Below the pieces are notes generated by a model. The model was given only the letters and a program-made list of their open reading frames with translations, searched no databases and was not told the origin of the DNA. The translations under genes and the position numbers were made by a program. From Escherichia coli (lineage in GTDB: Bacteria; Pseudomonadota; Gammaproteobacteria; Enterobacterales; Enterobacteriaceae): DNA of 64,000 bases. Shown here in pieces: positions 8,843 through 45,444 of this stretch. The DNA lies in the NCBI RefSeq assembly GCF_013122565.1, contig NZ_CP053258.1, one strand, 5' to 3'. How positions within the stretch are numbered: position 1 is the first letter of the stretch; every line of letters starts with the position of its first letter.

Positions 8843-9130
8843 TTAATTTACTAAACACGGTTTGGTCAGCATAGCATCATGTTGTGCGAATAAACACCTG
8901 CTATTTTAATATTTGTTACAGTGGCTAAACACGCTGACGCAGGGCGGCGAGAAAAAGAGAAGTTACTGGCTGGTGGAGGATTAGGTGGTGAAATAAAAAG
9001 GCCGTTGGGTTACTCTTCAGGCAGTTAAATGGGCATTTCTACACAGATAATGCGATGTTCAGATTCTGTAGACTTATAATGATAGATAATGATCCGTCTA
9101 CAGCATGACAAACAAAAACAGATGCGTTAC

Positions 9131-35204: not shown

Positions 35205-36398
35205 TCAAATCTGTCGTAACTGCGTCTCAACATACAAATAGCCAATTCCCAGCACCTGTTGTGCGCGGCTTAATTGCCCGAAGCCAATTTGCGTCGCTTT
35301 CACGCTCGGTCCTTCGTCGCGGTCGAACGGGTTAAATCCTGTCTGGCGAATAATGGTATTAAGCCAGTGCTCACCAAAGGCACAACTGCGACCGTACAAC
35401 CAAATCTGATTAATATTGAGGATGTTGAGGAAGTTATACAGACTCAAACCAATGGCATTGGCACTGCGGTCAACCCAGCTGGTGATCCACGGTTCTCCAC
35501 TCTGCCAGGCAGCGATTAACTGCGCGGTTGTCAGTTTTTCAGGATCAAGTTGAGTATTAACCGGTTGTGATTTTAGCCATACCCGCGCCTGTTTTTTTAA
35601 TGCACTTAACGAGGCGACGGTTTCCAGGCAGCCGTAACGTCCACAGTCGCAGACGACGCCATCCGTATTAACGATGGTGTGACCAATCTGTCCGCTACCA
35701 TACAAACTGCCGCGATAAATTTGCTCGTTAATCACGAACGACGAGCCAATGCCGTAATCAACGTTGATCACGCAGAAATCCCGTTCCTGCGAATTATTTT
35801 GCCATTTTTCCGCCAGCGCCAGCATCACGCAGTCATTATCGACCATCACCCGAATGCCCAGCTTCTCTTCCAGCAGATATTTCACCTCAACCGGCGTTGT
35901 CCACGGCGCTTGCGGCATGGTTTGCGACACTCCAGTCACTGGATCAACCTGACCGTGGATTGCCAGCGCCAGATTGATGGTGCGGTCCGGCCACAATTTA
36001 CGGTGGCGATGCCAGCATTTTTCGATTTCGGACAGCAGCGCCTGCGGCGTCGGTGCATCAATCTGTAAATACTCAAATTCACCTTTCGGACTTAAACAAG
36101 CATTAGCAACCTGACACTCAATACTGGTGGGCGTCACGTTCAGGCACAGCGTCCAGTCACCTTCCGGCGCAATCAGCCATGTACCGCTACTATGCCCGCG
36201 CGTCTGGCTTTCATCGTCGATATTCACCACCCGTTTTTCGCTTTCCAGTTCCTGCAAAATATTACTGACTGCCGGAATCGAAATTTGCGCCAGCCGGGCC
36301 AGCGTTGATTTATTGGCGCGCTTTTGCCGGTACAGCAGTTCCAGAATCACGCATTTGTTATGGTGGCGAATCTGTTGATTGTTAATGCAGGCTCTCAT
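35205..36398 (-). CDS. yphH: ROK-family (NagC/Mlc-like) transcriptional regulator
   Basis: ORF track 35205..36404 (399 aa); N-terminal HTH, ROK sugar-kinase-like fold with Cys-rich zinc motif CDCGRYGC. Start set at the second Met (36398) on remembered length; this is uncertain. Confidence 0.85.
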   Translation of the reverse strand: MRACINNQQIRHHNKCVILELLYRQKRANKSTLARLAQISIPAVSNILQELESEKRVVNIDDESQTRGHSSGTWLIAPEGDWTLCLNVTPTSIECQVANACLSPKGEFEYLQIDAPTPQALLSEIEKCWHRHRKLWPDRTINLALAIHGQVDPVTGVSQTMPQAPWTTPVEVKYLLEEKLGIRVMVDNDCVMLALAEKWQNNSQERDFCVINVDYGIGSSFVINEQIYRGSLYGSGQIGHTIVNTDGVVCDCGRYGCLETVASLSALKKQARVWLKSQPVNTQLDPEKLTTAQLIAAWQSGEPWITSWVDRSANAIGLSLYNFLNILNINQIWLYGRSCAFGEHWLNTIIRQTGFNPFDRDEGPSVKATQIGFGQLSRAQQVLGIGYLYVETQLRQI

Positions 36399-36515
36399 CT
36401 TCACTAAACCTTGTTTAGTTAATTGCGTGATTATTCCGCGAAAACATTGCCAGATTGTTCAATACACTGCCACAAATCTTTTAATTCAGTATGTCTTGTT
36501 AATATTGAGGGCACC

Positions 36516-39500
36516 ATGACTCCAGTAAAAGTGTGGCAAGAGCGCGTTGAGATCCCGACCTATGAAACCGGGCCGCAGGATATACATCCCATGTTCCTCG
36601 AAAATCGCGTTTATCAGGGATCGTCCGGCGCGGTTTATCCCTACGGCGTGACCGATACGCTGAGCGAGCAGAAAACCCTGAAATCCTGGCAGGCGGTGTG
36701 GCTGGAAAACGACTACATCAAAGTGATGATCCTGCCGGAATTGGGCGGTCGGGTGCATCGAGCATGGGATAAAGTGAAACAGCGCGATTTTGTCTATCAC
36801 AATGAAGTCATTAAACCTGCGCTGGTGGGGCTGCTGGGACCGTGGATCTCCGGCGGGATTGAGTTTAACTGGCCGCAACACCATCGCCCGACCACCTTTA
36901 TGCCCGTTGATTTCACCCTCGAAGCCCATGAAGACGGCGCACAGACGGTGTGGGTAGGCGAAACGGAGCCGATGCATGGTTTACAGGTGATGACAGGTTT
37001 CACCCTGCGCCCTGACCGGGCGGCGCTGGAAATCGCCAGCCGCGTCTATAACGGCAACGCCACGCCGCGTCATTTCTTGTGGTGGGCCAACCCGGCAGTG
37101 AAAGGGGGGGAAGGGCATCAGAGCGTCTTCCCGCCGGATGTAACGGCGGTGTTTGATCACGGCAAACGGGCCGTCTCCGCTTTCCCTATCGCCACCGGCA
37201 CTTACTACAAAGTGGACTACTCCGCTGGAGTGGACATTTCTCGCTATAAAAATGTGCCTGTTCCAACCTCATATATGGCCGAAAAATCGCAGTACGATTT
37301 TGTCGGCGCGTGGTGTCACGATGAAGATGGCGGTTTGCTGCACGTTGCCAACCACCATATTGCGCCAGGTAAAAAACAGTGGAGTTGGGGACACAGTGAA
37401 TTTGGCCAGGCGTGGGATAAGAGCCTAACTGATAATAACGGCCCGTATATCGAACTGATGACCGGTATTTTTGCCGATAACCAGCCCGATTTTACCTGGC
37501 TTGATGCTTACGAAGAGAAGCGTTTTGAGCAGTATTTCCTGCCTTATCATTCTTTGGGCATGGTGCAAAATGCCTCCCGCGATGCGGTGATAAAACTCCA
37601 GCGTAGTGAGCGGGGGATTGAGTGGGGGCTGTATGCCATCTCTCCGTTGAACGGATACCGCCTGGCGATCCGCGAAATCGGCAAATGCAACGCGTTACTT
37701 GATGATGCCGTGGCACTGATGCCTGCGACCGCCATCCAGGGCGTGTTGCACGGTATCAATCCTGAAAGGCTGACCATTGAGCTCTCTGATGCCGACGGCA
37801 ATATTGTACTGAGTTATCAGGAACATCAGCCGCAAGAGTTGCCGTTGCCGGACGTCGCCAAAGCGCCACTGGCAGCACAAGACATTACCAGTACAGATGA
37901 AGCCTGGTTTATCGGTCAGCATCTGGAGCAATATCATCACGCGAGCCGTTCACCGTTCGATTACTACCTGCGCGGCGTGGCGCTGGATCCGCTGGATTAC
38001 CGCTGTAACCTGGCGCTGGCGATGCTGGAGTATAACCGCGCAGATTTCCCGCAAGCGGTGGCGTATGCCACTCAGGCTCTGAAACGCGCACATGCGCTGA
38101 ACAAAAATCCGCAGTGCGGACAGGCGAGTTTGATTCGCGCCAGTGCTTACGAACGTCAGGGACAATATCAACAAGCCGAAGAGGATTTCTGGCGTGCGGT
38201 CTGGAGCGGCAACAGTAAAGCCGGAGGCTATTATGGTCTGGCACGACTGGCGGCGCGTAATGGTAACTTCGACGCGGGTCTGGATTTTTGCCAACAAAGT
38301 CTTCGCGCCTGCCCAACCAATCAGGAAGTGCTTTGCCTGCATAATCTGCTGCTGGTGTTAAGTGGTCGTCAGGACAACGCGCGTTTGCAGCGCGAGAAAC
38401 TGCTGCGCGATTATCCGCTGAACGCCACTCTGTGGTGGCTGAACTGGTTCGATGGTCGTAGCGAATCAGCTCTCGCGCAGTGGCGCGGTCTGTGTCAGGG
38501 ACGCGACGTTAACGCCCTGATGACCGCCGGGCAACTGATTAACTGGGGAATGCCCACCCTGGCGGCAGAGATGCTGAACGCACTGGACTGCCAGCGCACG
38601 CTGCCGCTTTACCTGCAAGCCAGCTTGCTGCCGAAAGCCGAACGTGGCGAACTGGTCGCAAAAGCCATTGATGTCTTCCCGCAGTTTGTCCGTTTCCCGA
38701 ATACGCTGGAAGAAGTGGCGGCGCTGGAGAGTATTGAAGAGTGCTGGTTTGCTCGCCATTTACTGGCCTGCTTCTACTACAACAAACGTAGCTACAACAA
38801 AGCCATTGCCTTATGGCAACGTTGCGAAGAGATGTCGCCGGAGTTTGCCGACGGCTGGCGCGGGTTAGCGATCCATGCGTGGAATAAGCAACACGATTAT
38901 GAGCTGGCCGCGCGTTATCTTGATAATGCTTATCAGCTTGCGCCGCAGGATGCACGTCTGCTTTTCGAACGGGATTTGCTTGATAAGTTAAGTGGAGCCA
39001 CACCGGAGAAACGACTGGCGCGTCTGGAAAATAATCTGGAAATTGCGCTGAAACGCGACGACATGACCGCAGAACTGCTCAATTTGTGGCATCTCACGGG
39101 GCAGGCAGACAAAGCGGCGGACATTCTCGCCACGCGCAAATTCCACCCGTGGGAAGGCGGGGAAGGGAAGGTCACCAGTCAGTTTATCCTCAACCAGTTA
39201 TTACGCGCCTGGCAGCATCTTGATGCCAGACAGCCGCAGCAGGCCAGCGAACTGCTTCATGCCGCGCTGCATTATCCGGAGAATTTAAGCGAAGGCCGTT
39301 TACCGGGGCAAACTGATAACGACATCTGGTTCTGGCAGGCGATATGCGCCAACGCGCAGGGCGATGAAACTGAAGCGACGCGTTGTTTACGTCTGGCGGC
39401 GACTGGCGATCGCACCATTAACATTCACAGTTATTACAACGATCAGCCGGTTGATTATCTCTTCTGGCAAGGAATGGCGCTGCGACTGCTGGGCGAACAA

Positions 39501-39797
39501 CAAATCGCACAGCAACTGTTTAGTGAAATGAAACAGTGGGCGCAAGAGATGGCGAAAACCAGTATCGAAGCGGATTTCTTTGCCGTCTCGCAACCTGACT
39601 TGTTGTCGCTGTATGGCGATTTACAACAGCAGCATAAAGAAAAATGCCTGATGGTGGCGATGCTGGCGTCCGCGGGACTCGGGGAGGTTGCGCAATATGA
39701 GTCTGCTCGCGCTGAATTGACGGCGATTAATCCGGCCTGGCCGAAAGCGGCATTATTCACCACTGTGATGCCTTTTATTTTTAACTACGTTCACTAA
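36516..39797 (+). CDS. yphG: Large uncharacterised protein with C-terminal TPR-like repeats
   Basis: ORF track 36423..39797; ATG at 36516 preceded by GAGGG RBS gives 1093 aa; no signal peptide evident; function unknown. Confidence 0.85.
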   Translation: MTPVKVWQERVEIPTYETGPQDIHPMFLENRVYQGSSGAVYPYGVTDTLSEQKTLKSWQAVWLENDYIKVMILPELGGRVHRAWDKVKQRDFVYHNEVIKPALVGLLGPWISGGIEFNWPQHHRPTTFMPVDFTLEAHEDGAQTVWVGETEPMHGLQVMTGFTLRPDRAALEIASRVYNGNATPRHFLWWANPAVKGGEGHQSVFPPDVTAVFDHGKRAVSAFPIATGTYYKVDYSAGVDISRYKNVPVPTSYMAEKSQYDFVGAWCHDEDGGLLHVANHHIAPGKKQWSWGHSEFGQAWDKSLTDNNGPYIELMTGIFADNQPDFTWLDAYEEKRFEQYFLPYHSLGMVQNASRDAVIKLQRSERGIEWGLYAISPLNGYRLAIREIGKCNALLDDAVALMPATAIQGVLHGINPERLTIELSDADGNIVLSYQEHQPQELPLPDVAKAPLAAQDITSTDEAWFIGQHLEQYHHASRSPFDYYLRGVALDPLDYRCNLALAMLEYNRADFPQAVAYATQALKRAHALNKNPQCGQASLIRASAYERQGQYQQAEEDFWRAVWSGNSKAGGYYGLARLAARNGNFDAGLDFCQQSLRACPTNQEVLCLHNLLLVLSGRQDNARLQREKLLRDYPLNATLWWLNWFDGRSESALAQWRGLCQGRDVNALMTAGQLINWGMPTLAAEMLNALDCQRTLPLYLQASLLPKAERGELVAKAIDVFPQFVRFPNTLEEVAALESIEECWFARHLLACFYYNKRSYNKAIALWQRCEEMSPEFADGWRGLAIHAWNKQHDYELAARYLDNAYQLAPQDARLLFERDLLDKLSGATPEKRLARLENNLEIALKRDDMTAELLNLWHLTGQADKAADILATRKFHPWEGGEGKVTSQFILNQLLRAWQHLDARQPQQASELLHAALHYPENLSEGRLPGQTDNDIWFWQAICANAQGDETEATRCLRLAATGDRTINIHSYYNDQPVDYLFWQGMALRLLGEQQIAQQLFSEMKQWAQEMAKTSIEADFFAVSQPDLLSLYGDLQQQHKEKCLMVAMLASAGLGEVAQYESARAELTAINPAWPKAALFTTVMPFIFNYVH

Positions 39798-39893
39798 ACC
39801 CTATTAACTGTAATATTTGAGCGGCACGCGCTGCCGCTCATCACAAAATAATTAGAATAAGCCGTTGTTAATAAAAACCCTACAGGAGGCTCT

Positions 39894-40877
39894 ATGCCTA
39901 AAAAAATGAGAACAACCCGTAATCTATTATTAATGGCTACGCTATTAGGTAGCGCTTTATTTGCCAGGGCTGCGGATAAAGAAATGACCATTGGCGCAAT
40001 ATACCTTGATACTCAGGGATATTACGCTGGAGTGCGTCAGGGCGTTCAGGATGCGGCAAAAGATTCTTCAGTACAGGTACAGTTAATTGAAACTAACGCC
40101 CAGGGTGATATTTCGAAAGAAAGTACCTTTGTTGATACCCTCGTGGCGCGTAATGTCGATGCTATTATTTTATCGGCAGTGTCTGAAAATGGCAGTAGCC
40201 GTACCGTTCGTCGCGCCAGTGAAGCGGGTATTCCGGTGATTTGCTACAACACCTGTATTAATCAAAAGGGTGTCGATAAATATGTCTCGGCATATCTGGT
40301 GGGTGACCCGCTGGAATTTGGTAAAAAACTGGGTAACGCTGCCGCCGATTATTTTATTGCCAACAAAATTGACCAGCCGAAAATTGCCGTCATCAATTGC
40401 GAAGCCTTTGAAGTTTGTGTGCAACGACGTAAAGGGTTTGAAGAAGTATTAAAAGCCCGCGTTCCCGGCGCGCAAATTGTCGCTAATCAGGAAGGGACTG
40501 TTTTAGATAAAGCGATTTCCGTTGGTGAAAAACTAATTATCTCTACGCCGGATCTCAACGCCATTATGGGAGAATCGGGCGGTGCGACACTCGGCGCGGT
40601 AAAAGCGGTACGTAATCAAAATCAGGCAGGAAAAATTGCCGTTTTCGGTTCGGATATGACAACCGAAATTGCTCAGGAGCTGGAAAACAATCAGGTGCTG
40701 AAAGCGGTAGTGGATATTTCCGGTAAGAAAATGGGCAATGCTGTTTTCGCGCAAACATTGAAGGTTATCAATAAACAAGCCGACGGTGAAAAAGTGATTC
40801 AGGTGCCAATCGATCTCTATACCAAAACGGAAGACGGTAAACAGTGGCTGGCAACGCACGTTGATGGTCTGCCCTAA
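39894..40877 (+). CDS. yphF: ABC transporter periplasmic sugar-binding protein (RbsB-like)
   Basis: 327-aa ORF with signal peptide MPKKMRTTRNLLLMATLLGSALFARA and periplasmic-binding-protein fold. Confidence 0.88.
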   Translation: MPKKMRTTRNLLLMATLLGSALFARAADKEMTIGAIYLDTQGYYAGVRQGVQDAAKDSSVQVQLIETNAQGDISKESTFVDTLVARNVDAIILSAVSENGSSRTVRRASEAGIPVICYNTCINQKGVDKYVSAYLVGDPLEFGKKLGNAAADYFIANKIDQPKIAVINCEAFEVCVQRRKGFEEVLKARVPGAQIVANQEGTVLDKAISVGEKLIISTPDLNAIMGESGGATLGAVKAVRNQNQAGKIAVFGSDMTTEIAQELENNQVLKAVVDISGKKMGNAVFAQTLKVINKQADGEKVIQVPIDLYTKTEDGKQWLATHVDGLP

Positions 40878-40899
40878 TCGCTGATTCGCAGAGGTCCCT

Positions 40900-42411
40900 A
40901 TGTTCACGGCAACAGAGGCAGTCCCGGTAGCAAAAGTGGTGGCAGGAAATAAGCGTTATCCCGGCGTCGTTGCGTTGGATAACGTTAACTTCACGCTCAA
41001 TAAAGGCGAGGTTCGTGCGCTGTTAGGCAAAAACGGCGCGGGCAAATCGACCCTCATTCGAATGCTTACCGGTAGCGAACGTCCGGATAGCGGTGATATC
41101 TGGATTGGCGAGACGCGACTGGAAGGCGACGAAGCTACGCTGACTCGCCGTGCCGCTGAACTGGGGGTTCGTGCGGTTTATCAGGAGTTAAGTCTGGTGG
41201 AAGGGCTGACGGTGGCGGAAAACCTCTGCCTCGGTCAGTGGCCCCGCCACAACGGCATGATTGATTACCTGCAAATGGCGCAGGATGCCCAACGTTGCTT
41301 ACAGGCGCTGGGCGTTGACGTTAGTCCTGAACAACTTGTTTCAACACTAAGCCCGGCGCATAAGCAGCTGGTGGAAATTGCGCGGGTGATGAAGGGCGAG
41401 CCGCGCGTGGTCATTCTTGATGAACCTACCAGTTCGCTTGCGAGTGCGGAAGTTGAACTGGTGATCAGCGCGGTGAAAAAGATGTCGGCACTGGGCGTGG
41501 CGGTGATTTATGTCAGCCACCGGATGGAAGAAATTCGCCGCATTGCCTCCTGTGCCACCGTTATGCGCGACGGGCAGGTGGCTGGCGATGTGATGCTCGA
41601 AAACACTTCCACGCATCATATTGTGTCGCTAATGCTAGGGCGCGATCACGTTGATATTGCGCCGGTTGCACCTCAGGAAATTGTGGATCAGGCCGTGCTG
41701 GAAGTCCGTGCGTTACGCCATAAGCCCAAGCTGGAGGATATCAGTTTTACGCTACGTCGTGGCGAAGTGCTCGGCATTGCTGGTCTGCTGGGGGCAGGGC
41801 GCAGTGAATTGCTAAAGGCGATAGTTGGGCTGGAGACATATGAACAGGGCGAAATTGTTATCAACGGCGAGAAAATCACTCGCCCCGATTACGGCGACAT
41901 GCTGAAACGCGGCATTGGCTATACGCCAGAAAACCGCAAAGAAGCGGGGATCATTCCCTGGTTGGGCGTTGACGAAAATACAGTGCTGACCAATCGGCAA
42001 AAAATCAGCGCCAACGGTGTGCTGCAATGGTCCACCATCCGCCGCCTGACCGAAGAGGTGATGCAGCGGATGACGGTCAAGGCCGCCAGTAGTGAAACGC
42101 CCATCGGTACGCTTTCTGGCGGCAATCAGCAAAAAGTGGTGATCGGTCGTTGGGTCTATGCCGCCAGCCAGATTTTGTTGCTCGACGAGCCAACGCGCGG
42201 CGTCGATATCGAAGCCAAACAGCAGATTTACCGTATTGTCCGTGAGCTGGCTGCCGAAGGAAAAAGCGTGGTGTTTATCTCCAGTGAAGTGGAGGAGTTG
42301 CCGCTGGTGTGTGACCGCATCCTGTTATTACAGCACGGCACGTTCTCGCAGGAGTTTCACGCTCCGGTCAATGTGGATGAGCTGATGTCCGCCATTCTGT
42401 CTGTGCACTGA
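40900..42411 (+). CDS. yphE: ABC transporter ATP-binding protein with duplicated ATPase domains (RbsA/MglA-like)
   Basis: 503-aa ORF with two Walker A motifs (GKNGAGKST, GLLGAGRSE) and two LSGGxQ signature motifs. Confidence 0.9.
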   Translation: MFTATEAVPVAKVVAGNKRYPGVVALDNVNFTLNKGEVRALLGKNGAGKSTLIRMLTGSERPDSGDIWIGETRLEGDEATLTRRAAELGVRAVYQELSLVEGLTVAENLCLGQWPRHNGMIDYLQMAQDAQRCLQALGVDVSPEQLVSTLSPAHKQLVEIARVMKGEPRVVILDEPTSSLASAEVELVISAVKKMSALGVAVIYVSHRMEEIRRIASCATVMRDGQVAGDVMLENTSTHHIVSLMLGRDHVDIAPVAPQEIVDQAVLEVRALRHKPKLEDISFTLRRGEVLGIAGLLGAGRSELLKAIVGLETYEQGEIVINGEKITRPDYGDMLKRGIGYTPENRKEAGIIPWLGVDENTVLTNRQKISANGVLQWSTIRRLTEEVMQRMTVKAASSETPIGTLSGGNQQKVVIGRWVYAASQILLLDEPTRGVDIEAKQQIYRIVRELAAEGKSVVFISSEVEELPLVCDRILLLQHGTFSQEFHAPVNVDELMSAILSVH

Positions 42412-42434
42412 TGAATTTTACCGAGGAACCTAAG

Positions 42435-43433
42435 ATGTCTGCTTCGTCATTACCATTGCCGCAGGGCAAGAGCGTCTCGCTCAAACTATTTGTCAGTCGC
42501 CATATTAATGAGATCGGTTTGCTGGTGGTGATTGCCATTCTTTATCTGGTCTTCTCCCTGAACGCGCCTGGCTTTATCTCATTGAATAACCAGATGAACG
42601 TGCTGCGCGATGCCGCCACCATTGGGATTGCCGCCTGGGCGATGACGCTGATTATTATCTCCGGTGAAATTGATGTCAGCGTTGGGCCGATGGTGGCTTT
42701 TGTCTCGGTGTGCCTGGCATTTTTGCTGCAATTTGAAGTTCCGCTGGCGGTGGCGTGTCTGCTGGTGTTGCTGTTAGGCGCGCTGATGGGAACGCTGGCC
42801 GGGGTGCTGCGCGGCGTGTTTAACGTACCAAGTTTCGTTGCCACACTGGGGCTGTGGAGCGCCCTGCGCGGAATGGGGCTGTTTATGACCAACGCACTGC
42901 CAGTGCCGATTGACGAAAACGAGGTGCTGGACTGGCTGGGCGGACAATTTCTCGGTGTGCCGGTATCCGCGCTGATCATGATGGTGCTGTTTGCGCTGTT
43001 TGTGTTCATTAGCCGAAAAACCGCCTTCGGGCGCTCGGTTTTTGCCGTTGGCGGTAATGCCACGGCGGCGCAGTTGTGCGGTATTAACGTTCGTCGGGTA
43101 CGCATTCTTATCTTTACCCTTTCGGGATTATTAGCGGCGGTGACCGGCATTTTGTTGGCGGCGCGCCTCGGTTCTGGTAACGCAGGTGCCGCAAACGGTC
43201 TGGAGTTTGACGTCATCGCCGCGGTCGTGGTCGGCGGTACGGCACTTTCCGGTGGTCGCGGCTCGTTGTTCGGTACGCTGCTTGGCGTACTGGTGATTAC
43301 GCTAATCGGTAACGGTCTGGTGCTGCTCGGGATTAACTCCTTTTTCCAGCAGGTGGTGCGCGGCGTCATCATCGTGGTGGCGGTGCTGGCGAATATCTTG
43401 CTGACCCAGCGTAGCAGTAAAGCGAAACGCTAA
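42435..43433 (+). CDS. yphD: ABC transporter permease (RbsC-like)
   Basis: ORF track 42411..43433; ATG at 42435 with GAGGAA RBS gives 332 aa; multi-pass hydrophobic protein. Confidence 0.88.
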   Translation: MSASSLPLPQGKSVSLKLFVSRHINEIGLLVVIAILYLVFSLNAPGFISLNNQMNVLRDAATIGIAAWAMTLIIISGEIDVSVGPMVAFVSVCLAFLLQFEVPLAVACLLVLLLGALMGTLAGVLRGVFNVPSFVATLGLWSALRGMGLFMTNALPVPIDENEVLDWLGGQFLGVPVSALIMMVLFALFVFISRKTAFGRSVFAVGGNATAAQLCGINVRRVRILIFTLSGLLAAVTGILLAARLGSGNAGAANGLEFDVIAAVVVGGTALSGGRGSLFGTLLGVLVITLIGNGLVLLGINSFFQQVVRGVIIVVAVLANILLTQRSSKAKR

Positions 43434-43498
43434 ACCTTAACGCCCCTGGCGCGGGTGCGGCAGGGATGAAAATTAATCGTATTGTTAATGAGGGATTT

Positions 43499-44560
43499 AT
43501 GAAAACGATGCTGGCAGCTTATTTACCAGGAAATTCGACCGTCGATCTGCGGGAAGTTGCGGTGCCGACGCCGGGGATTAACCAGGTACTGATCAAAATG
43601 AAATCCTCCGGGATTTGCGGAAGCGATGTCCACTATATCTACCATCAACACCGCGCCACGGCGGCGGCGCCCGATAAACCGTTATACCAGGGCTTTATCA
43701 ACGGTCATGAGCCGTGCGGGCAAATTGTGGCGATGGGGCAAGGCTGCCGCCATTTTAAAGAGGGCGACCGCGTGCTGGTGTATCACATTTCTGGCTGTGG
43801 TTTTTGCCCGAACTGCCGTCGCGGTTTTCCTATATCTTGTACTGGCGAAGGAAAAGCGGCTTACGGCTGGCAGCGTGACGGCGGTCATGCCGAATATCTG
43901 CTGGCGGAAGAAAAAGATCTGATCCTCCTGCCGGATGCGCTGAGCTACGAAGATGGTGCGTTTATCAGTTGCGGCGTTGGCACGGCCTATGAAGGGATTT
44001 TACGCGGCGAAGTTTCCGGCAGCGATAACGTGCTGGTGGTCGGTCTGGGGCCGGTCGGCATGATGGCGATGATGCTGGCGAAAGGTCGCGGTGCAAAACG
44101 GATCATCGGCGTTGATATGCTGCCGGAACGTCTGGCGATGGCAAAACAGTTAGGGGTGATGGATCACGGTTATTTAGCGACCACCGAAGGTCTGCCGCAG
44201 ATAATTGCTGAACTTACCCACGGTGGCGCGGATGTTGCGCTCGATTGTTCCGGTAATGCCGCAGGTCGCTTGCTGGCACTGCAATCCACTGCTGACTGGG
44301 GGCGGGTGGTTTACATTGGTGAAACCGGAAAAGTGGAATTCGAGGTCAGCGCCGATCTGATGCACCATCAACGGCGGATTATTGGCTCCTGGGTGACCAG
44401 TCTGTTCCATATGGAAAAATGCGCCCACGATTTGACTGACTGGAAGCTGTGGCCGCGTAACGCCATTACCCATCGCTTCTCGCTGGAACAGGCAGGTGAT
44501 GCCTATGCGCTGATGGCGAGCGGCAAATGCGGGAAAGTTGTGATTAACTTCCCGGATTAA
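43499..44560 (+). CDS. yphC: Zinc-dependent alcohol/polyol dehydrogenase (MDR family)
   Basis: ORF track 43466..44560; ATG at 43499 (MKTMLAAYLPGN...) gives 353 aa; GHEPCG zinc motif and GLGPVG NAD-binding motif. Confidence 0.88.
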   Translation: MKTMLAAYLPGNSTVDLREVAVPTPGINQVLIKMKSSGICGSDVHYIYHQHRATAAAPDKPLYQGFINGHEPCGQIVAMGQGCRHFKEGDRVLVYHISGCGFCPNCRRGFPISCTGEGKAAYGWQRDGGHAEYLLAEEKDLILLPDALSYEDGAFISCGVGTAYEGILRGEVSGSDNVLVVGLGPVGMMAMMLAKGRGAKRIIGVDMLPERLAMAKQLGVMDHGYLATTEGLPQIIAELTHGGADVALDCSGNAAGRLLALQSTADWGRVVYIGETGKVEFEVSADLMHHQRRIIGSWVTSLFHMEKCAHDLTDWKLWPRNAITHRFSLEQAGDAYALMASGKCGKVVINFPD

Positions 44561-44571
44561 GGAGTTAGCGG

Positions 44572-45444
44572 ATGACCATCTATACCTTATCCCACGGGTC
44601 GCTAAAGCTGGGCGTTTCTGACCAGGGCGGCGTAATCGAAGGCTTCTGGCGCGATACGACGCCGCTCTTACGTCCTGGTAAAAAAAACGGTGTGGCAACC
44701 GATGCCTCCTGTTTTCCGCTGGTGCCGTTTGCAAACCGGGTGAGCGGTAACCGTTTTGTCTGGCAGGGGCGTGAGTATCAACTGCAACCGAATGTTGAAT
44801 GGGATGCGCACTATCTGCACGGCGATGGCTGGCTGGTCGAGTGGCAATGTGTCTCGCACAGCGATGATAGTTTGTGTCTGGTGTATGAACATCGCAGCGG
44901 TGTCTATCACTATCGGGTAAGTCAGGCGTTTCATTTAACGGCGGATACGCTGACGGTGACGCTCTCTGTCACCAATCAAGGGGCAGAGACGCTGCCATTT
45001 GGTACCGGCTGGCATCCTTATTTTCCGTTGTCGCCGCAAACGCGGATTCAGGCACAGGCGAGCGGTTACTGGCTGGAGCGGGAGCAGTGGCTGGCGGGTG
45101 AGTTTTGCGAGCAGCTACCGCAAGAATTGGATTTTAACCAGCTCGCGCCGTTGCCGCGCCAGTGGGTGAACAATGGTTTTGCCGGATGGAATGGTCAGGC
45201 CCGCATCGAGCAGCCGCAGGAGGGTTATGCCATCATCATAGAAACGACGCCATCTGCACCGTGTTATTTCATCTTTGTTTCCGACCCGGCGTTTGATAAA
45301 GGATATGCGTTTGATTTCTTCTGTCTGGAGCCGATGAGCCATGCGCCGGATGACCATCATCGCCCGGAAGGGGGGGACCTCATTGCGCTTGCGCCGGGGG
45401 AATCAACAACCTCAGAGATGTCGTTGCGGGTAGAGTGGCTGTAA
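44572..45444 (+). CDS. yphB: Aldose 1-epimerase family protein (mutarotase-like)
   Basis: 290-aa ORF MTIYTLSHGSLKLGVSDQGGVIEGFW.... Confidence 0.85.
   Translation: MTIYTLSHGSLKLGVSDQGGVIEGFWRDTTPLLRPGKKNGVATDASCFPLVPFANRVSGNRFVWQGREYQLQPNVEWDAHYLHGDGWLVEWQCVSHSDDSLCLVYEHRSGVYHYRVSQAFHLTADTLTVTLSVTNQGAETLPFGTGWHPYFPLSPQTRIQAQASGYWLEREQWLAGEFCEQLPQELDFNQLAPLPRQWVNNGFAGWNGQARIEQPQEGYAIIIETTPSAPCYFIFVSDPAFDKGYAFDFFCLEPMSHAPDDHHRPEGGDLIALAPGESTTSEMSLRVEWL

What the first reader, a model, noticed from the sequence alone, without database searches (positions are those of the whole stretch)
36516..39797. YphG: 1093-aa protein of unknown function embedded in a sugar-transport operon
The largest ORF in the locus has no recognisable catalytic motif in my reading, only TPR-like helical repeats in the C-terminal half and an N-terminal region without an obvious signal peptide or transmembrane segment. 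It sits at the head of an apparent operon with an RbsB/RbsA/RbsC-like ABC importer, a zinc-dependent polyol dehydrogenase and a mutarotase-like protein, divergent from a ROK-family regulator. An unusually large cytoplasmic partner for a sugar transporter suggests an unassigned enzymatic or scaffolding role. This is the least-explained element in the window, though the gene itself is a known unknown rather than new sequence.
Basis: partly seen in the sequence, partly recalled or inferred. Interest (0 to 1): 0.5.

Follow-up and report, generated by a model that had tools for sequence, protein, structure and literature searches.

The report
YphG: mutarotase-fold plus TPR sugar protein
YphG is a real, strongly conserved 1093-residue E. 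coli protein of unknown function; its N-terminal third folds like a sugar mutarotase, and its relatives in many phyla sit beside one dedicated sugar transporter and galactosidases, so it is most likely an uncharacterised sugar-processing enzyme rather than a scaffold.

Summary
It is under strong purifying selection (dN/dS 0.05). The sequence databases call it only DUF5107 plus TPR, and I found no functional paper.

New here:
- **Conservation.** It is concentrated in the mutarotase-like domain: H123, H215, E313, E116, N179 and N192 persist down to 24% identity.
- **Family.** It is large (about 3,970 clusters at 50% identity), keeps the roughly 1100-aa architecture across phyla, and includes signal-peptide forms.
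- **Context.** The yphFEDCB operon accompanies only close orthologues. The conserved context is regulator (AraC or ROK) + one specific XylE-like sugar porter + YphG, often with a GH2_20 beta-galactosidase. That galactosidase is periplasmic in Bacteroidota, while YphG is cytoplasmic.

Best reading, at moderate confidence: a cofactor-independent enzyme acting at the anomeric centre of an imported galactose-type sugar. Substrate and reaction remain unknown. It is a known unknown with a sharper, testable hypothesis.

The parts
35205..36398 (-). yphH, a ROK-family (NagC/Mlc-like) regulator, divergent from yphG
   Evidence: RefSeq annotation of the 99.1% identical genome. NCBIfam gives NagC 110 bits and Mlc 107 bits, both below the equivalog cut-offs. 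A YphH-like ROK gene lies next to YphG in 10 of 13 gammaproteobacterial loci.
36402..36420 (.). Palindrome CACTAAAC-CTT-GTTTAGT in the yphH/yphG divergent region; candidate YphH operator (inferred)
   Evidence: Inverted repeat found. The core is invariant in E. albertii, Enterobacter and Citrobacter. The pattern search gave 3 matches in the window against 0.18 expected.
36516..39797 (+). yphG coding sequence (1093 codons plus stop)
   Evidence: dN/dS is 0.052 against E. albertii.
36516..36647 (+). Residues 1-44: conserved N-terminal lead (IPTY..G.P..NP.F.E.R.YQG..G.VYP.P)
   Evidence: 9 of 44 columns are 90% or more conserved in 55 diverse homologues. It is poorly modelled (pLDDT below 50 at 27-38).
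36648..37550 (+). Residues 45-345: aldose-1-epimerase-like beta-supersandwich (Pfam DUF5107). Candidate active-site residues are E116, H122/H123, N179, N192, H215, D306, Y311 and E313
37551..37880 (+). Residues 346-455: seven-stranded beta-sandwich linker domain, weakly conserved
   Evidence: Strands 357-435 in the model. Only 3.6% of columns are 90% or more conserved. dN/dS is highest here, 0.09-0.17.
37881..39794 (+). Residues 456-1093: TPR superhelix of about 36 helices. Invariant W563, R782 and E880 (motif FHPWEGGEG, 876-884), plus conserved loops at 923-928, 973-978 and 1020-1028
39792..39810 (.). Degenerate second copy of the palindrome (CACTAAACCCTATTAACTG), overlapping the yphG stop codon
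   Evidence: 3 mismatches. The left half and flanks are conserved in four genera. Its function is inferred only.
39818..39840 (+). 9-bp G+C-rich hairpin in the 96-nt yphG-yphF spacer, with no U tract
   Evidence: RNA fold of the spacer gives -22.1 kcal/mol, z -2.5. The stem is conserved with a variable loop in E. albertii, Enterobacter and Citrobacter.
39894..43433 (+). yphF (39894-40877, substrate-binding protein), yphE (40900-42411, ATPase), yphD (42435-43433, permease): a monosaccharide-type (Rbs/Ara/Mgl-like) ABC importer
   Evidence: Annotation. NCBIfam family-level hits are all below equivalog cut-offs. The closest PDB relative of YphF is an unassigned substrate-binding protein, 5hsg.
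43466..44560 (+). yphC, a Zn-dependent medium-chain dehydrogenase
   Evidence: NCBIfam: Tdh 171 bits, scyllo-inosose 3-dehydrogenase IolM 169 bits, both below cut-off. A YphC-like gene is present with YphG only in the 3 close orthologue loci and 3 of 66 distant loci.
44572..45444 (+). yphB, an aldose 1-epimerase family protein

Best explanation
YphG is the catalytic core of a conserved sugar-utilisation module made of a regulator, a sugar importer and YphG.

**Proposed mechanism.** A galactose-type sugar is brought in by the adjacent transporter: YphFED in E. coli, and one specific XylE-like sugar porter in most other lineages. The sugar binds in the cleft of the N-terminal mutarotase-like supersandwich. 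There it undergoes cofactor-independent general acid/base chemistry at the anomeric (hemiacetal) carbon, carried out by conserved His and Glu residues (E313 with H123 and/or H215, and E116). This is ring-opening chemistry that interconverts sugar forms: anomer, ring form or aldose/ketose. The product would then be passed on. In E. coli, YphB would equilibrate anomers and YphC would oxidise or reduce a partner polyol or sugar. The TPR superhelix, through its conserved loops (W563, R782, E880), would act as a lid on the cleft or as an oligomerisation platform. YphH would repress the locus from the conserved palindrome.

**Shown:** fold, conservation pattern, purifying selection, gene neighbourhoods, and compartment predictions.

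**Inferred:** that the conserved residues line the mutarotase sugar site, the chemistry, the substrate class, and the roles of the TPR region, YphB, YphC and YphH.
For: **Fold.**

**Conservation.**
- 19% of columns are 90% or more conserved in residues 45-345, against 1.6-5.7% in the TPR part.
- H123, H215, E313, N179, N192, W110 and Y311 are invariant in 55 homologues down to 25% identity. E116, H123, N179, N192, H215, D306, Y311 and E313 are also present in 5cd6 at 24% identity.
- dN/dS is 0.012 for the N-domain.

**Cofactor independence.**
- No nucleotide-binding domain is detected.
- About 16 of 55 diverse homologues carry signal peptides yet keep the invariant residues.

**Context.**
- In 66 distant loci, AraC is present in 42, the MFS sugar porter in 29 (25 of them within two genes, usually immediately upstream on the same strand), and some sugar transporter in 45.
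- The MFS partners are one orthologous subfamily. They are about 54% identical between Gammaproteobacteria and Bacteroidota, but only about 38% identical to XylE and 33% to GalP or AraE.
- Galactosidases recur nearby: GH2_20 in 30 loci, plus GH35-like, GH97 and GH36-like, giving 38 of 66 loci in all.
- In Bacteroidota loci the GH2_20 has a signal or lipoprotein peptide, while YphG is cytoplasmic and follows the sugar porter. This places YphG after uptake, on a monosaccharide-sized product.
- The transporters are of monosaccharide type: the sugar porter family, and Rbs/Ara/Mgl-like ABC systems.
- The smallest gammaproteobacterial cluster, ROK-YphG-MFS-YphB-like, has no other candidate enzyme.
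Against: - **No direct biochemical evidence.** Nothing shows what YphG does.
- **Sequence membership in the aldose 1-epimerase family fails.** There is no Pfam or NCBIfam hit. hhalign probability is below 1% against GalM-like and YphB-like profiles. An unfiltered hmmsearch recovers only the first strands.
- **The active-site assignment is unproven.** I could not superpose coordinates, so the equivalence of E313, H123 and H215 to the mutarotase Glu and His residues rests on motif order only. I could not find the N-H-x-Y-F-N His motif that I recall (own knowledge) as the mutarotase signature.
- **Canonical mutarotases sit beside YphG.** YphB-like genes are in 10 of 13 gammaproteobacterial loci, and cytoplasmic GalM is in L016, L029 and L068. 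Simple anomer interconversion would therefore be redundant.
- **The TPR solenoid is unexplained.** About 640 residues of TPR are not accounted for by a monosaccharide enzyme.
- **Secreted relatives look like polymer-active CAZymes.** They sit in polysaccharide-utilisation loci (PULs) with GH16, sulfatases and esterases, and one is fused to a CBM9-like module.
- **The transporter argument is not absolute.** Sugar porters can carry disaccharides in some organisms (own knowledge).
Confidence: 0.38

Rival explanations
1. YphG founds a new family of glycosidic-bond-cleaving enzymes (hydrolase, lyase or phosphorylase). The mutarotase-like supersandwich is the catalytic domain, with two conserved carboxylates (E116 and E313, or E313 and E880) as the catalytic pair. 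It acts on small galactose-containing glycosides or oligosaccharides. The adjacent mutarotase (YphB or GalM) then equilibrates the released sugar, and in E. coli YphC oxidises a released polyol aglycone.
For: - Canonical mutarotases co-occur with YphG, as they do with known glycosidases. The examples I have in mind, lacZ with galM and yihQ with yihR, are from my own knowledge.
- Secreted homologues sit in PULs between GH16 and sulfatases, or next to SASA and AXE1 esterases.
- One secreted homologue carries a CBM9-like module (E 4.6e-8).
- Firmicutes loci have oligosaccharide-type (UgpA-like) ABC systems in 10 of 66 distant loci, and GH2_20 and YphG are both cytoplasmic there.
- Photobacterium pairs YphG with a MelB-like glycoside transporter.
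- DUF5107 is listed among digestive-enzyme markers of phagotrophic stramenopiles (PMC8163842).
Against: - The dedicated partner transporter belongs to monosaccharide-type families.
- In Bacteroidota the galactosidase is periplasmic and YphG is cytoplasmic behind a sugar porter, which leaves no obvious glycoside for YphG.
- There is no similarity to any glycoside hydrolase model in Pfam or NCBIfam.
Confidence: 0.27
2. YphG is non-catalytic. It is a sugar-binding sensor or adaptor whose TPR solenoid docks onto the transporter, the regulator or another enzyme.
For: - YphG is always found next to a regulator and a transporter.
Against: - The His, Glu and Asn residues of the N-domain are invariant across phyla, and N-domain dN/dS is 0.012. 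That pattern is typical of an active site.
- The same residues are kept in signal-peptide-bearing homologues, which cannot meet cytoplasmic regulators or ATPases.
- The partner regulator class (AraC versus ROK) and transporter class (MFS versus ABC) are interchangeable, which is hard to square with a specific docking interface.
Confidence: 0.15
3. YphG is simply an oversized isozyme of galactose mutarotase (beta-D-Gal to alpha-D-Gal) that serves the product of the neighbouring beta-galactosidase.
For: - It has the mutarotase fold.
- It lies within two genes of a GH2_20 beta-galactosidase in 28 of 66 distant loci.
- Most of those loci lack a GalM gene (7 of 66 have one).
Against: - Cytoplasmic GalM and YphG occur in the same operon-like clusters (L016, L029, L068).
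- YphB-like epimerases accompany YphG in Enterobacterales.
- No sequence-level relation to the family is detectable.
- The 1100-residue architecture and the dedicated transporter are unexplained.
Confidence: 0.08
4. The ORF is a decaying or spurious gene, or a TPR protein unrelated to the operon (defence, phage or secretion).
For: - Some database entries are truncated (643-955 aa).
- PHROGs gives weak hits restricted to the TPR region.
Against: - dN/dS is 0.05, with an intact 1093-codon frame in four genera.
- The 11-kb yph region is covered at 80% or more in 5369 of 5426 complete E. coli genomes.
- There are no PADLOC hits.
- The sugar-gene context is conserved across phyla.
Confidence: 0.01

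Closest known systems
Aldose 1-epimerases (galactose mutarotase GalM; YphB, YeaD and hexose-6-phosphate mutarotase; Pfam Aldose_epim)
   Different: No detectable sequence-profile relationship exists. The signature His motif was not found. YphG is three times larger, with an extra beta-sandwich and about 640 residues of TPR. It co-occurs with canonical family members rather than replacing them.
PDB 5CD6 (deposited as 'TPR-domain containing protein' BDI_1685, Parabacteroides distasonis; structural-genomics style title; I found no paper on it)
   Different: It is 580 residues with a much shorter TPR part and only 24% identity, so it is a separate subfamily. No function has been assigned to it either.
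Carbohydrate enzymes built on a supersandwich: OpgG/OpgD, GH174 endo-fucanase, PL4 and PL26 rhamnogalacturonan lyases
   Different: Structural similarity is much weaker than to mutarotases. There is no sequence similarity, and none of them carries a TPR solenoid.
GH15, GH65 and GH94 architecture (N-terminal supersandwich followed by a helical catalytic domain)
Bacterial sugar-catabolic operons with a transporter and a mutarotase (rbsDACBK, fucPIKU, galETKM)
   Same: The logic is the same: a regulator, a monosaccharide-type importer and an enzyme that interconverts sugar forms are encoded together (own knowledge, compared).
   Different: The yph-type modules contain no kinase or classical isomerase, and the form-converting candidate is a 1100-residue protein.

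Membership tests
Pfam DUF5107 (PF17128) / TPR architecture family | Significant match to the DUF5107 profile | tested here: met
   E 3.1e-55, residues 39-324. All 21 members of alignment A3 match.
Pfam DUF5107 (PF17128) / TPR architecture family | C-terminal TPR superhelix following the DUF5107 domain, about 1100 aa overall | tested here: met
Aldose 1-epimerase / galactose mutarotase family | Galactose-mutarotase beta-supersandwich fold | tested here: met
Aldose 1-epimerase / galactose mutarotase family | Match to the family's sequence models (Pfam Aldose_epim, NCBIfam galM) | tested here: not met
   No hit in Pfam or NCBIfam. hhalign probability is below 1% against GalM-like and YphB-like alignments. 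Unfiltered hmmsearch scores are 2.6 bits or lower.
Aldose 1-epimerase / galactose mutarotase family | Catalytic Glu (base) and His (acid) plus a second substrate-binding His at the sugar pocket | tested here: inconclusive
   E313, H123 and H215 are invariant and lie in a plausible order. However, no residue-level structural superposition was possible and the sequence alignments do not reach these positions. I did not find the N-H-x-Y-F-N motif, which I quote from my own knowledge.
Aldose 1-epimerase / galactose mutarotase family | Mutarotase activity on an aldose | not testable with these tools
   Needs an enzyme assay.
Known glycoside hydrolase or polysaccharide lyase families | Sequence match to a characterised glycoside hydrolase or lyase family model | tested here: not met
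   None in Pfam, NCBIfam, or the PDB by sequence. The AFDB50 neighbours shown (top 50) are all DUF5107 or generically named TPR/'putative transferase' proteins, none with an assigned function.
GH15/GH65/GH94-type enzymes | (alpha/alpha)6-barrel catalytic domain after the N-terminal supersandwich | tested here: not met
   The full-length model's helical region matches only TPR solenoids.
yphFEDCB-type ABC sugar operon (functional partner of the Rbs-like importer) | Co-conservation of yphG with yphF, E, D, C and B across species | tested here: not met
   All five partners accompany YphG only in the 3 loci with orthologues of 75% identity or more. The 10 gammaproteobacterial loci at 49-58% identity and the 66 distant loci mostly have other transporters and lack a YphC-like gene (3 of 66 distant loci have one).
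Conserved module 'regulator + XylE-like sugar porter + YphG' | An adjacent orthologous MFS sugar porter | tested here: not met
   The window itself has the ABC system instead. The module is met in 6 of 10 gammaproteobacterial loci at 49-58% identity and in 29 of 66 distant loci. The MFS partners are about 54% identical across phyla.

The most novel reading that the evidence does not exclude
DUF5107-TPR proteins are a new class of carbohydrate-active enzyme: a mutarotase fold re-tooled and capped by a TPR solenoid. They would catalyse a step not yet placed in any pathway for galactose-type sugars. That step could be a cofactor-free ring-form or aldose-ketose interconversion, or a new glycoside-cleaving family. 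It would be served by its own sugar-porter subfamily and shared by E. coli, gut Bacteroidota and Firmicutes, bifidobacteria, green algae and phagotrophic protists.
Probability: 0.35. Interest if true: 0.7.

Novelty: new variant of a known kind. Interest (0 to 1): 0.45.

Why it matters
yphG is one of the largest uncharacterised genes in the E. coli core genome. Its family is very large: about 3,970 clusters at 50% identity. It is embedded in glycan-utilisation loci of gut and soil bacteria.

If it is an enzyme, a step in the use of galactose-containing dietary or algal glycans is missing from current pathway maps and genome-scale models. In that case a CAZy-type family or a new sugar isomerase class is waiting to be defined.

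This analysis turns 'DUF plus TPR' into concrete experiments:
- a short list of candidate catalytic residues;
- a candidate substrate class, namely the products of GH2_20, GH35, GH36 and GH97 galactosidases;
- a dedicated transporter subfamily to test alongside it;
- a candidate operator for YphH.

For the scan itself, the finding is a correct observation of a known unknown, not new sequence.

Tried and rejected
- **Sequence assignment.** NCBIfam, Pfam, the PDB by sequence, PADLOC and PHROGs gave only DUF5107, generic TPR and 5CD6.
- **Literature.** Searches for yphG, DUF5107, PF17128, 5CD6, BDI_1685, b2549, P76585, the other yph genes, and 'mutarotase-like' with 'tetratricopeptide' found no functional study. 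They returned only PCR-marker uses, expression lists and one comparative-genomics table. The Luis et al. 2018 paper (PMC5784806) is not held.
- **Profile-profile alignment to mutarotases.** hhalign against GalM-like and YphB-like alignments was not significant. The global mode gave nonsense and the local mode gave probability below 1%. An unfiltered hmmsearch recovered only the first strands. Catalytic-residue equivalence therefore could not be established.
- **GH15/65/94-like idea.** I considered that the conserved C-terminal loops mark an (alpha/alpha)6 barrel. I rejected it because the full-length model matches only TPR solenoids.
- **Full-length AF2 model.** With a shallow alignment of 54-83% identical sequences, the N-domain came out badly (pLDDT below 50 for 27-331). 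It was used only for the TPR part. How the domains pack, and where E880 lies relative to the cleft, could not be assessed.
- **AFDB50 search.** It returned only family members, none characterised.
- **Substrate clues from neighbours.** The closest PDB relative of YphF is an unassigned substrate-binding protein, and YphC has no PDB match at the strict 1e-40 cut-off I used. The small neighbour clusters c36, c27, c42, c61, c63 and c67 gave nothing useful in NCBIfam.
- **Long homologue in L042.** The 1510-aa form was an artefact of my longest-ORF calling.
- **GH2 domain start.** My first attempt to locate it by alignment occupancy failed and was replaced by direct N-terminal inspection.


Full report
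**1. The observation**

The window carries one long + strand frame, 36423..39797. The ATG at 36516 is preceded by GAGGG at 36507-36511 and gives 1093 codons before the TAA at 39795-39797.

The 11-kb region is 99.1% identical to E. coli PapM-32-1 and 96-98% identical to most E. coli genomes listed. It is covered at 80% or more in 5369 of 5426 complete genomes. RefSeq annotates exactly 36516-39797 as 'yphG: DUF5107 domain-containing protein'. The flanking genes are the divergent yphH (ROK), then yphF (substrate-binding protein), yphE (ATPase), yphD (permease), yphC (Zn-dependent dehydrogenase) and yphB (aldose 1-epimerase), then yphA and the hca genes. NCBIfam agrees at family level for all of them, and none reaches an equivalog cut-off.

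Enterobacterales homologues all begin at the Met equivalent to 36516. That supports the 1093-aa form over the 1124-aa TTG form.

The frame is intact and the same length in E. albertii, Enterobacter and Citrobacter. dN/dS is 0.052 against E. albertii: 0.012 for residues 1-345 and 0.078 for the TPR part.

**2. What the databases say**

- Pfam gives DUF5107 (39-324, E 3e-55) plus weak TPR matches between 499 and 954.
- NCBIfam gives only sub-threshold TPR families.
- By sequence, the only non-TPR PDB relative is 5CD6, deposited as 'TPR-domain containing protein' with no function.
- PADLOC finds nothing, and PHROGs finds only TPR-region noise.
- Full-text searches found no functional study.
- One comparative-genomics paper lists DUF5107 among genes typical of phagotrophic stramenopiles, beside digestive enzymes (PMC8163842).

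**3. Anatomy**

Residues 346-455 form a small, poorly conserved beta-sandwich.

**4. Conservation**

A search of 1.84 billion cluster representatives finds 3,969 clusters at E 1e-3 or better, and 897 at 1e-30 or better. Most of the 150 best are 1000-1170 residues, and the shorter ones look like fragments. AFDB50 neighbours include Chlorella proteins.

In 55 homologues down to 25% identity, the invariant positions are T15, P25, Q34, P42, N65, P74, G78, Y94, P101, G105, G108, W110, G113, H123, N179, N192, P206, H215, P224, S252, G273, L304, Y311, E313 and N322. In the TPR part, only W563, R782 and E880 are invariant.

The share of columns that are 90% or more conserved is 19% in residues 45-345, 3.6% in the beta-sandwich and 1.6-5.7% in the TPR region. 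E116, H123, N179, N192, H215, D306, Y311 and E313 are also present in 5CD6.

This is the pattern of an active site in the mutarotase-like domain, with a few TPR residues (the FHPWEGGEG loop around E880) possibly contributing. Whether E313, H123 and H215 are the structural equivalents of the mutarotase Glu and His residues could not be shown. Profile-profile and unfiltered HMM comparisons with GalM-like and YphB-like sequences are not significant and reach only the first strands. The tools give no residue-level superposition.

**5. Cellular location**

E. coli YphG and the homologues of about 32% identity or more have no leader. About 16 of the 55 diverse homologues, mostly those at 25-31% identity, carry typical signal or lipoprotein peptides yet keep the invariant residues. 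The chemistry therefore needs no cytoplasmic cofactor.

Secreted members lie in several contexts:
- between GH16 and sulfatases in a SusC/SusD locus;
- next to SASA and AXE1 esterases;
- next to AraC, Aldose_epim, GH36 and Sugar_tr.

One secreted member has a C-terminal CBM9-like module. Another has an endonuclease/exonuclease/phosphatase domain.

**6. Genomic context in 80 species-level loci** (my own ORF calling and clustering)

*Close orthologues (3 loci, 75% identity or more).* The full yphFEDCB set accompanies YphG only here.

*Gammaproteobacterial loci at 49-58% identity (10 loci).* The common arrangement is ROK< YphG> MFS sugar porter> YphB-like> (a ROK gene in 7, the MFS in 6). Several of these loci lie at the same chromosomal position, next to hcaT and csiE. 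The transporter has therefore been swapped, and YphC is absent from them.

*Distant loci (66 loci, about 40% identity: Bacteroidota, Lachnospiraceae, Ruminococcaceae, Paenibacillus, Bacillus, Bifidobacterium, Ktedonobacter, Spirochaetes).* The recurrent unit is AraC< MFS> YphG> GH2>. Counts are:
- AraC in 42 loci (38 within two genes);
- MFS in 29 (25 within two genes);
- GH2 in 30 (28 within two genes);
- any galactosidase-like gene in 38;
- any sugar transporter in 45;
- SusC/SusD in 11.

*The galactosidases.* The GH2 proteins score 878 bits on the BT4151 exo-beta-1,4-galactosidase model (cut-off 1500) and 634 bits to PDB 8U01. That places them in subfamily GH2_20, for which beta-galactosidase activity is reported (PMC12243196). 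Other recurrent neighbours are GH35-like, GH97 alpha-galactosidase-like, GH36-like and GalM.

*The MFS partners.* They form one subfamily. They are about 54% identical between Gammaproteobacteria and Bacteroidota, but only about 38% identical to XylE and 33% to GalP or AraE. This is a dedicated transporter that travels with YphG.

*Compartments.* In Bacteroidota loci the GH2_20 has a signal or lipoprotein peptide, while the YphG homologue is cytoplasmic and directly follows the sugar porter. In Firmicutes and bifidobacteria both are cytoplasmic. Cytoplasmic YphG therefore acts after uptake, most simply on a monosaccharide-sized product of galactoside breakdown.

**7. Interpretation**

The best-supported reading (confidence about 0.38) is a cofactor-independent enzyme. 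It would bind an imported galactose-type sugar in a mutarotase-like cleft and perform acid/base chemistry at the anomeric carbon, interconverting sugar forms. The TPR solenoid would act as a lid or an oligomerisation platform. YphB, YphC and the transporter would be peripheral, exchangeable partners.

The main rival (about 0.27) is a new glycoside-cleaving family. It is favoured by the adjacency of canonical mutarotases, the secreted PUL members and the CBM9 fusion. It is disfavoured by the monosaccharide-type transporters, the compartment logic in Bacteroidota and the much closer structural kinship to mutarotases.

A non-catalytic sensor or scaffold (about 0.15) is disfavoured by the active-site-like conservation, by the secreted forms, and by the interchangeability of regulator and transporter classes.

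A plain GalM isozyme (about 0.08) is disfavoured by co-occurrence with GalM and YphB.

A dead or spurious gene is excluded.

For E. coli specifically, a polyol-to-ketose (YphC) to aldose (YphG) to anomer (YphB) route is imaginable, but it is pure inference.

**8. Comparison with what is known, and novelty**

YphG is a member of Pfam DUF5107, and of the galactose-mutarotase-like fold class at superfamily level only. It fails the sequence criteria of the aldose 1-epimerase family, and the catalytic-residue test is inconclusive.

It is not a member of any characterised glycoside hydrolase or lyase family that I could detect. It also lacks the (alpha/alpha)6 barrel of GH15/65/94-type enzymes.

The gene is already annotated, so nothing here is new sequence. 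What is added is the fold assignment with quantified support, the candidate catalytic residues, the conserved module of regulator + dedicated sugar porter + YphG (+ GH2_20), and the compartment argument. The fold assignment may already be implicit in public classifications; I could not check that.

I rate it a new variant of a known kind, with moderate interest (0.45).

**9. Operon structure in the window**

- Gaps between yphF, E, D, C and B are 11-32 nt.
- The yphG-yphF gap is 96 nt. It holds a conserved 9-bp G+C-rich hairpin without a U tract (39818-39840).
- No promoter-like site was found in that gap.
- A conserved palindrome, CACTAAAC-N3-GTTTAGT, lies at 36402-36420 between yphH and yphG. 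A degenerate copy overlaps the yphG stop at 39792-39810.

Co-transcription of yphG with yphF-B is plausible but not shown. The second site and the hairpin leave room for separate control.

Noticed in passing
window 36402-36420: Near-perfect palindrome CACTAAAC-CTT-GTTTAGT, immediately upstream of the yphH start in the yphH/yphG divergent region. Its core is invariant in E. albertii, Enterobacter and Citrobacter. It is a candidate operator for the NagC/Mlc-like regulator YphH.
   Followed up: partly
window 39792-39810: A degenerate second copy of that palindrome (CACTAAACCCTATTAACTG) overlaps the yphG stop codon. Two sites flanking yphG would allow NagC-style DNA looping or separate control of yphF-B. 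The pattern search gave 3 matches in the window against 0.18 expected. The third, at 8849-8867, is probably chance.
   Followed up: partly
window 39818-39840: A conserved 9-bp G+C-rich hairpin (UGAGCGGCA/UGCCGCUCA) sits in the 96-nt yphG-yphF spacer with no U tract. The stem is kept and the loop varies across four genera. It could be an mRNA-stability or processing element between yphG and the transporter genes.
   Followed up: partly
L005, L006, L007, L008, L011, L013, L014 (around 10-15 kb in each locus): Citrobacter, Cedecea, Hafnia and Phytobacter carry ROK< YphG> MFS> YphB-like> at the same chromosomal position as the E. coli yph operon, next to hcaT and csiE. The transporter type has been swapped (MFS against ABC plus YphC) around a constant YphH-YphG-YphB core. 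Enterobacter L003 has both transporters.
   Followed up: yes
MFS genes next to YphG homologues, e.g. L075:8513-9898, L005:11038-12537: The sugar porter that travels with YphG is a distinct subfamily. It is about 54% identical between Gammaproteobacteria and Bacteroidota, which is more conserved than YphG itself (about 40%). It is only about 38% identical to XylE and 33% to GalP or AraE. Its substrate is unknown.
   Followed up: partly
P0258 (1417 aa) and P0238 (1399 aa), homologues from the representative search: Both are domain fusions in signal-peptide-bearing homologues. P0258 has a C-terminal CBM9-like module (E 4.6e-8). P0238 has a C-terminal endonuclease/exonuclease/phosphatase domain (E 4e-19).
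   Followed up: partly
L075:2376-3515 (- strand): A GalM-type aldose 1-epimerase with a lipoprotein-like leader (MKKYITGLAIIALALVGCKDN) sits near a YphG homologue. Exported mutarotases therefore exist in Bacteroidota, which weakens 'secreted implies polymer-active'.
   Followed up: no
window 36423-36515: The ORF extends 31 codons upstream to a TTG, giving the 1124-aa form. No homologue uses this extension, so ATG 36516 is the supported start.
   Followed up: yes
protein clusters P0009 (900 aa, 1109 members), P0033 (692 aa, 1402 members), P0002, P0028, P0037: Many truncated E. coli YphG entries exist in public collections. Most are probably contig-end fragments, but some (TPA genome entries of 643-955 aa) could be genuine truncations in particular lineages.
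   Followed up: no
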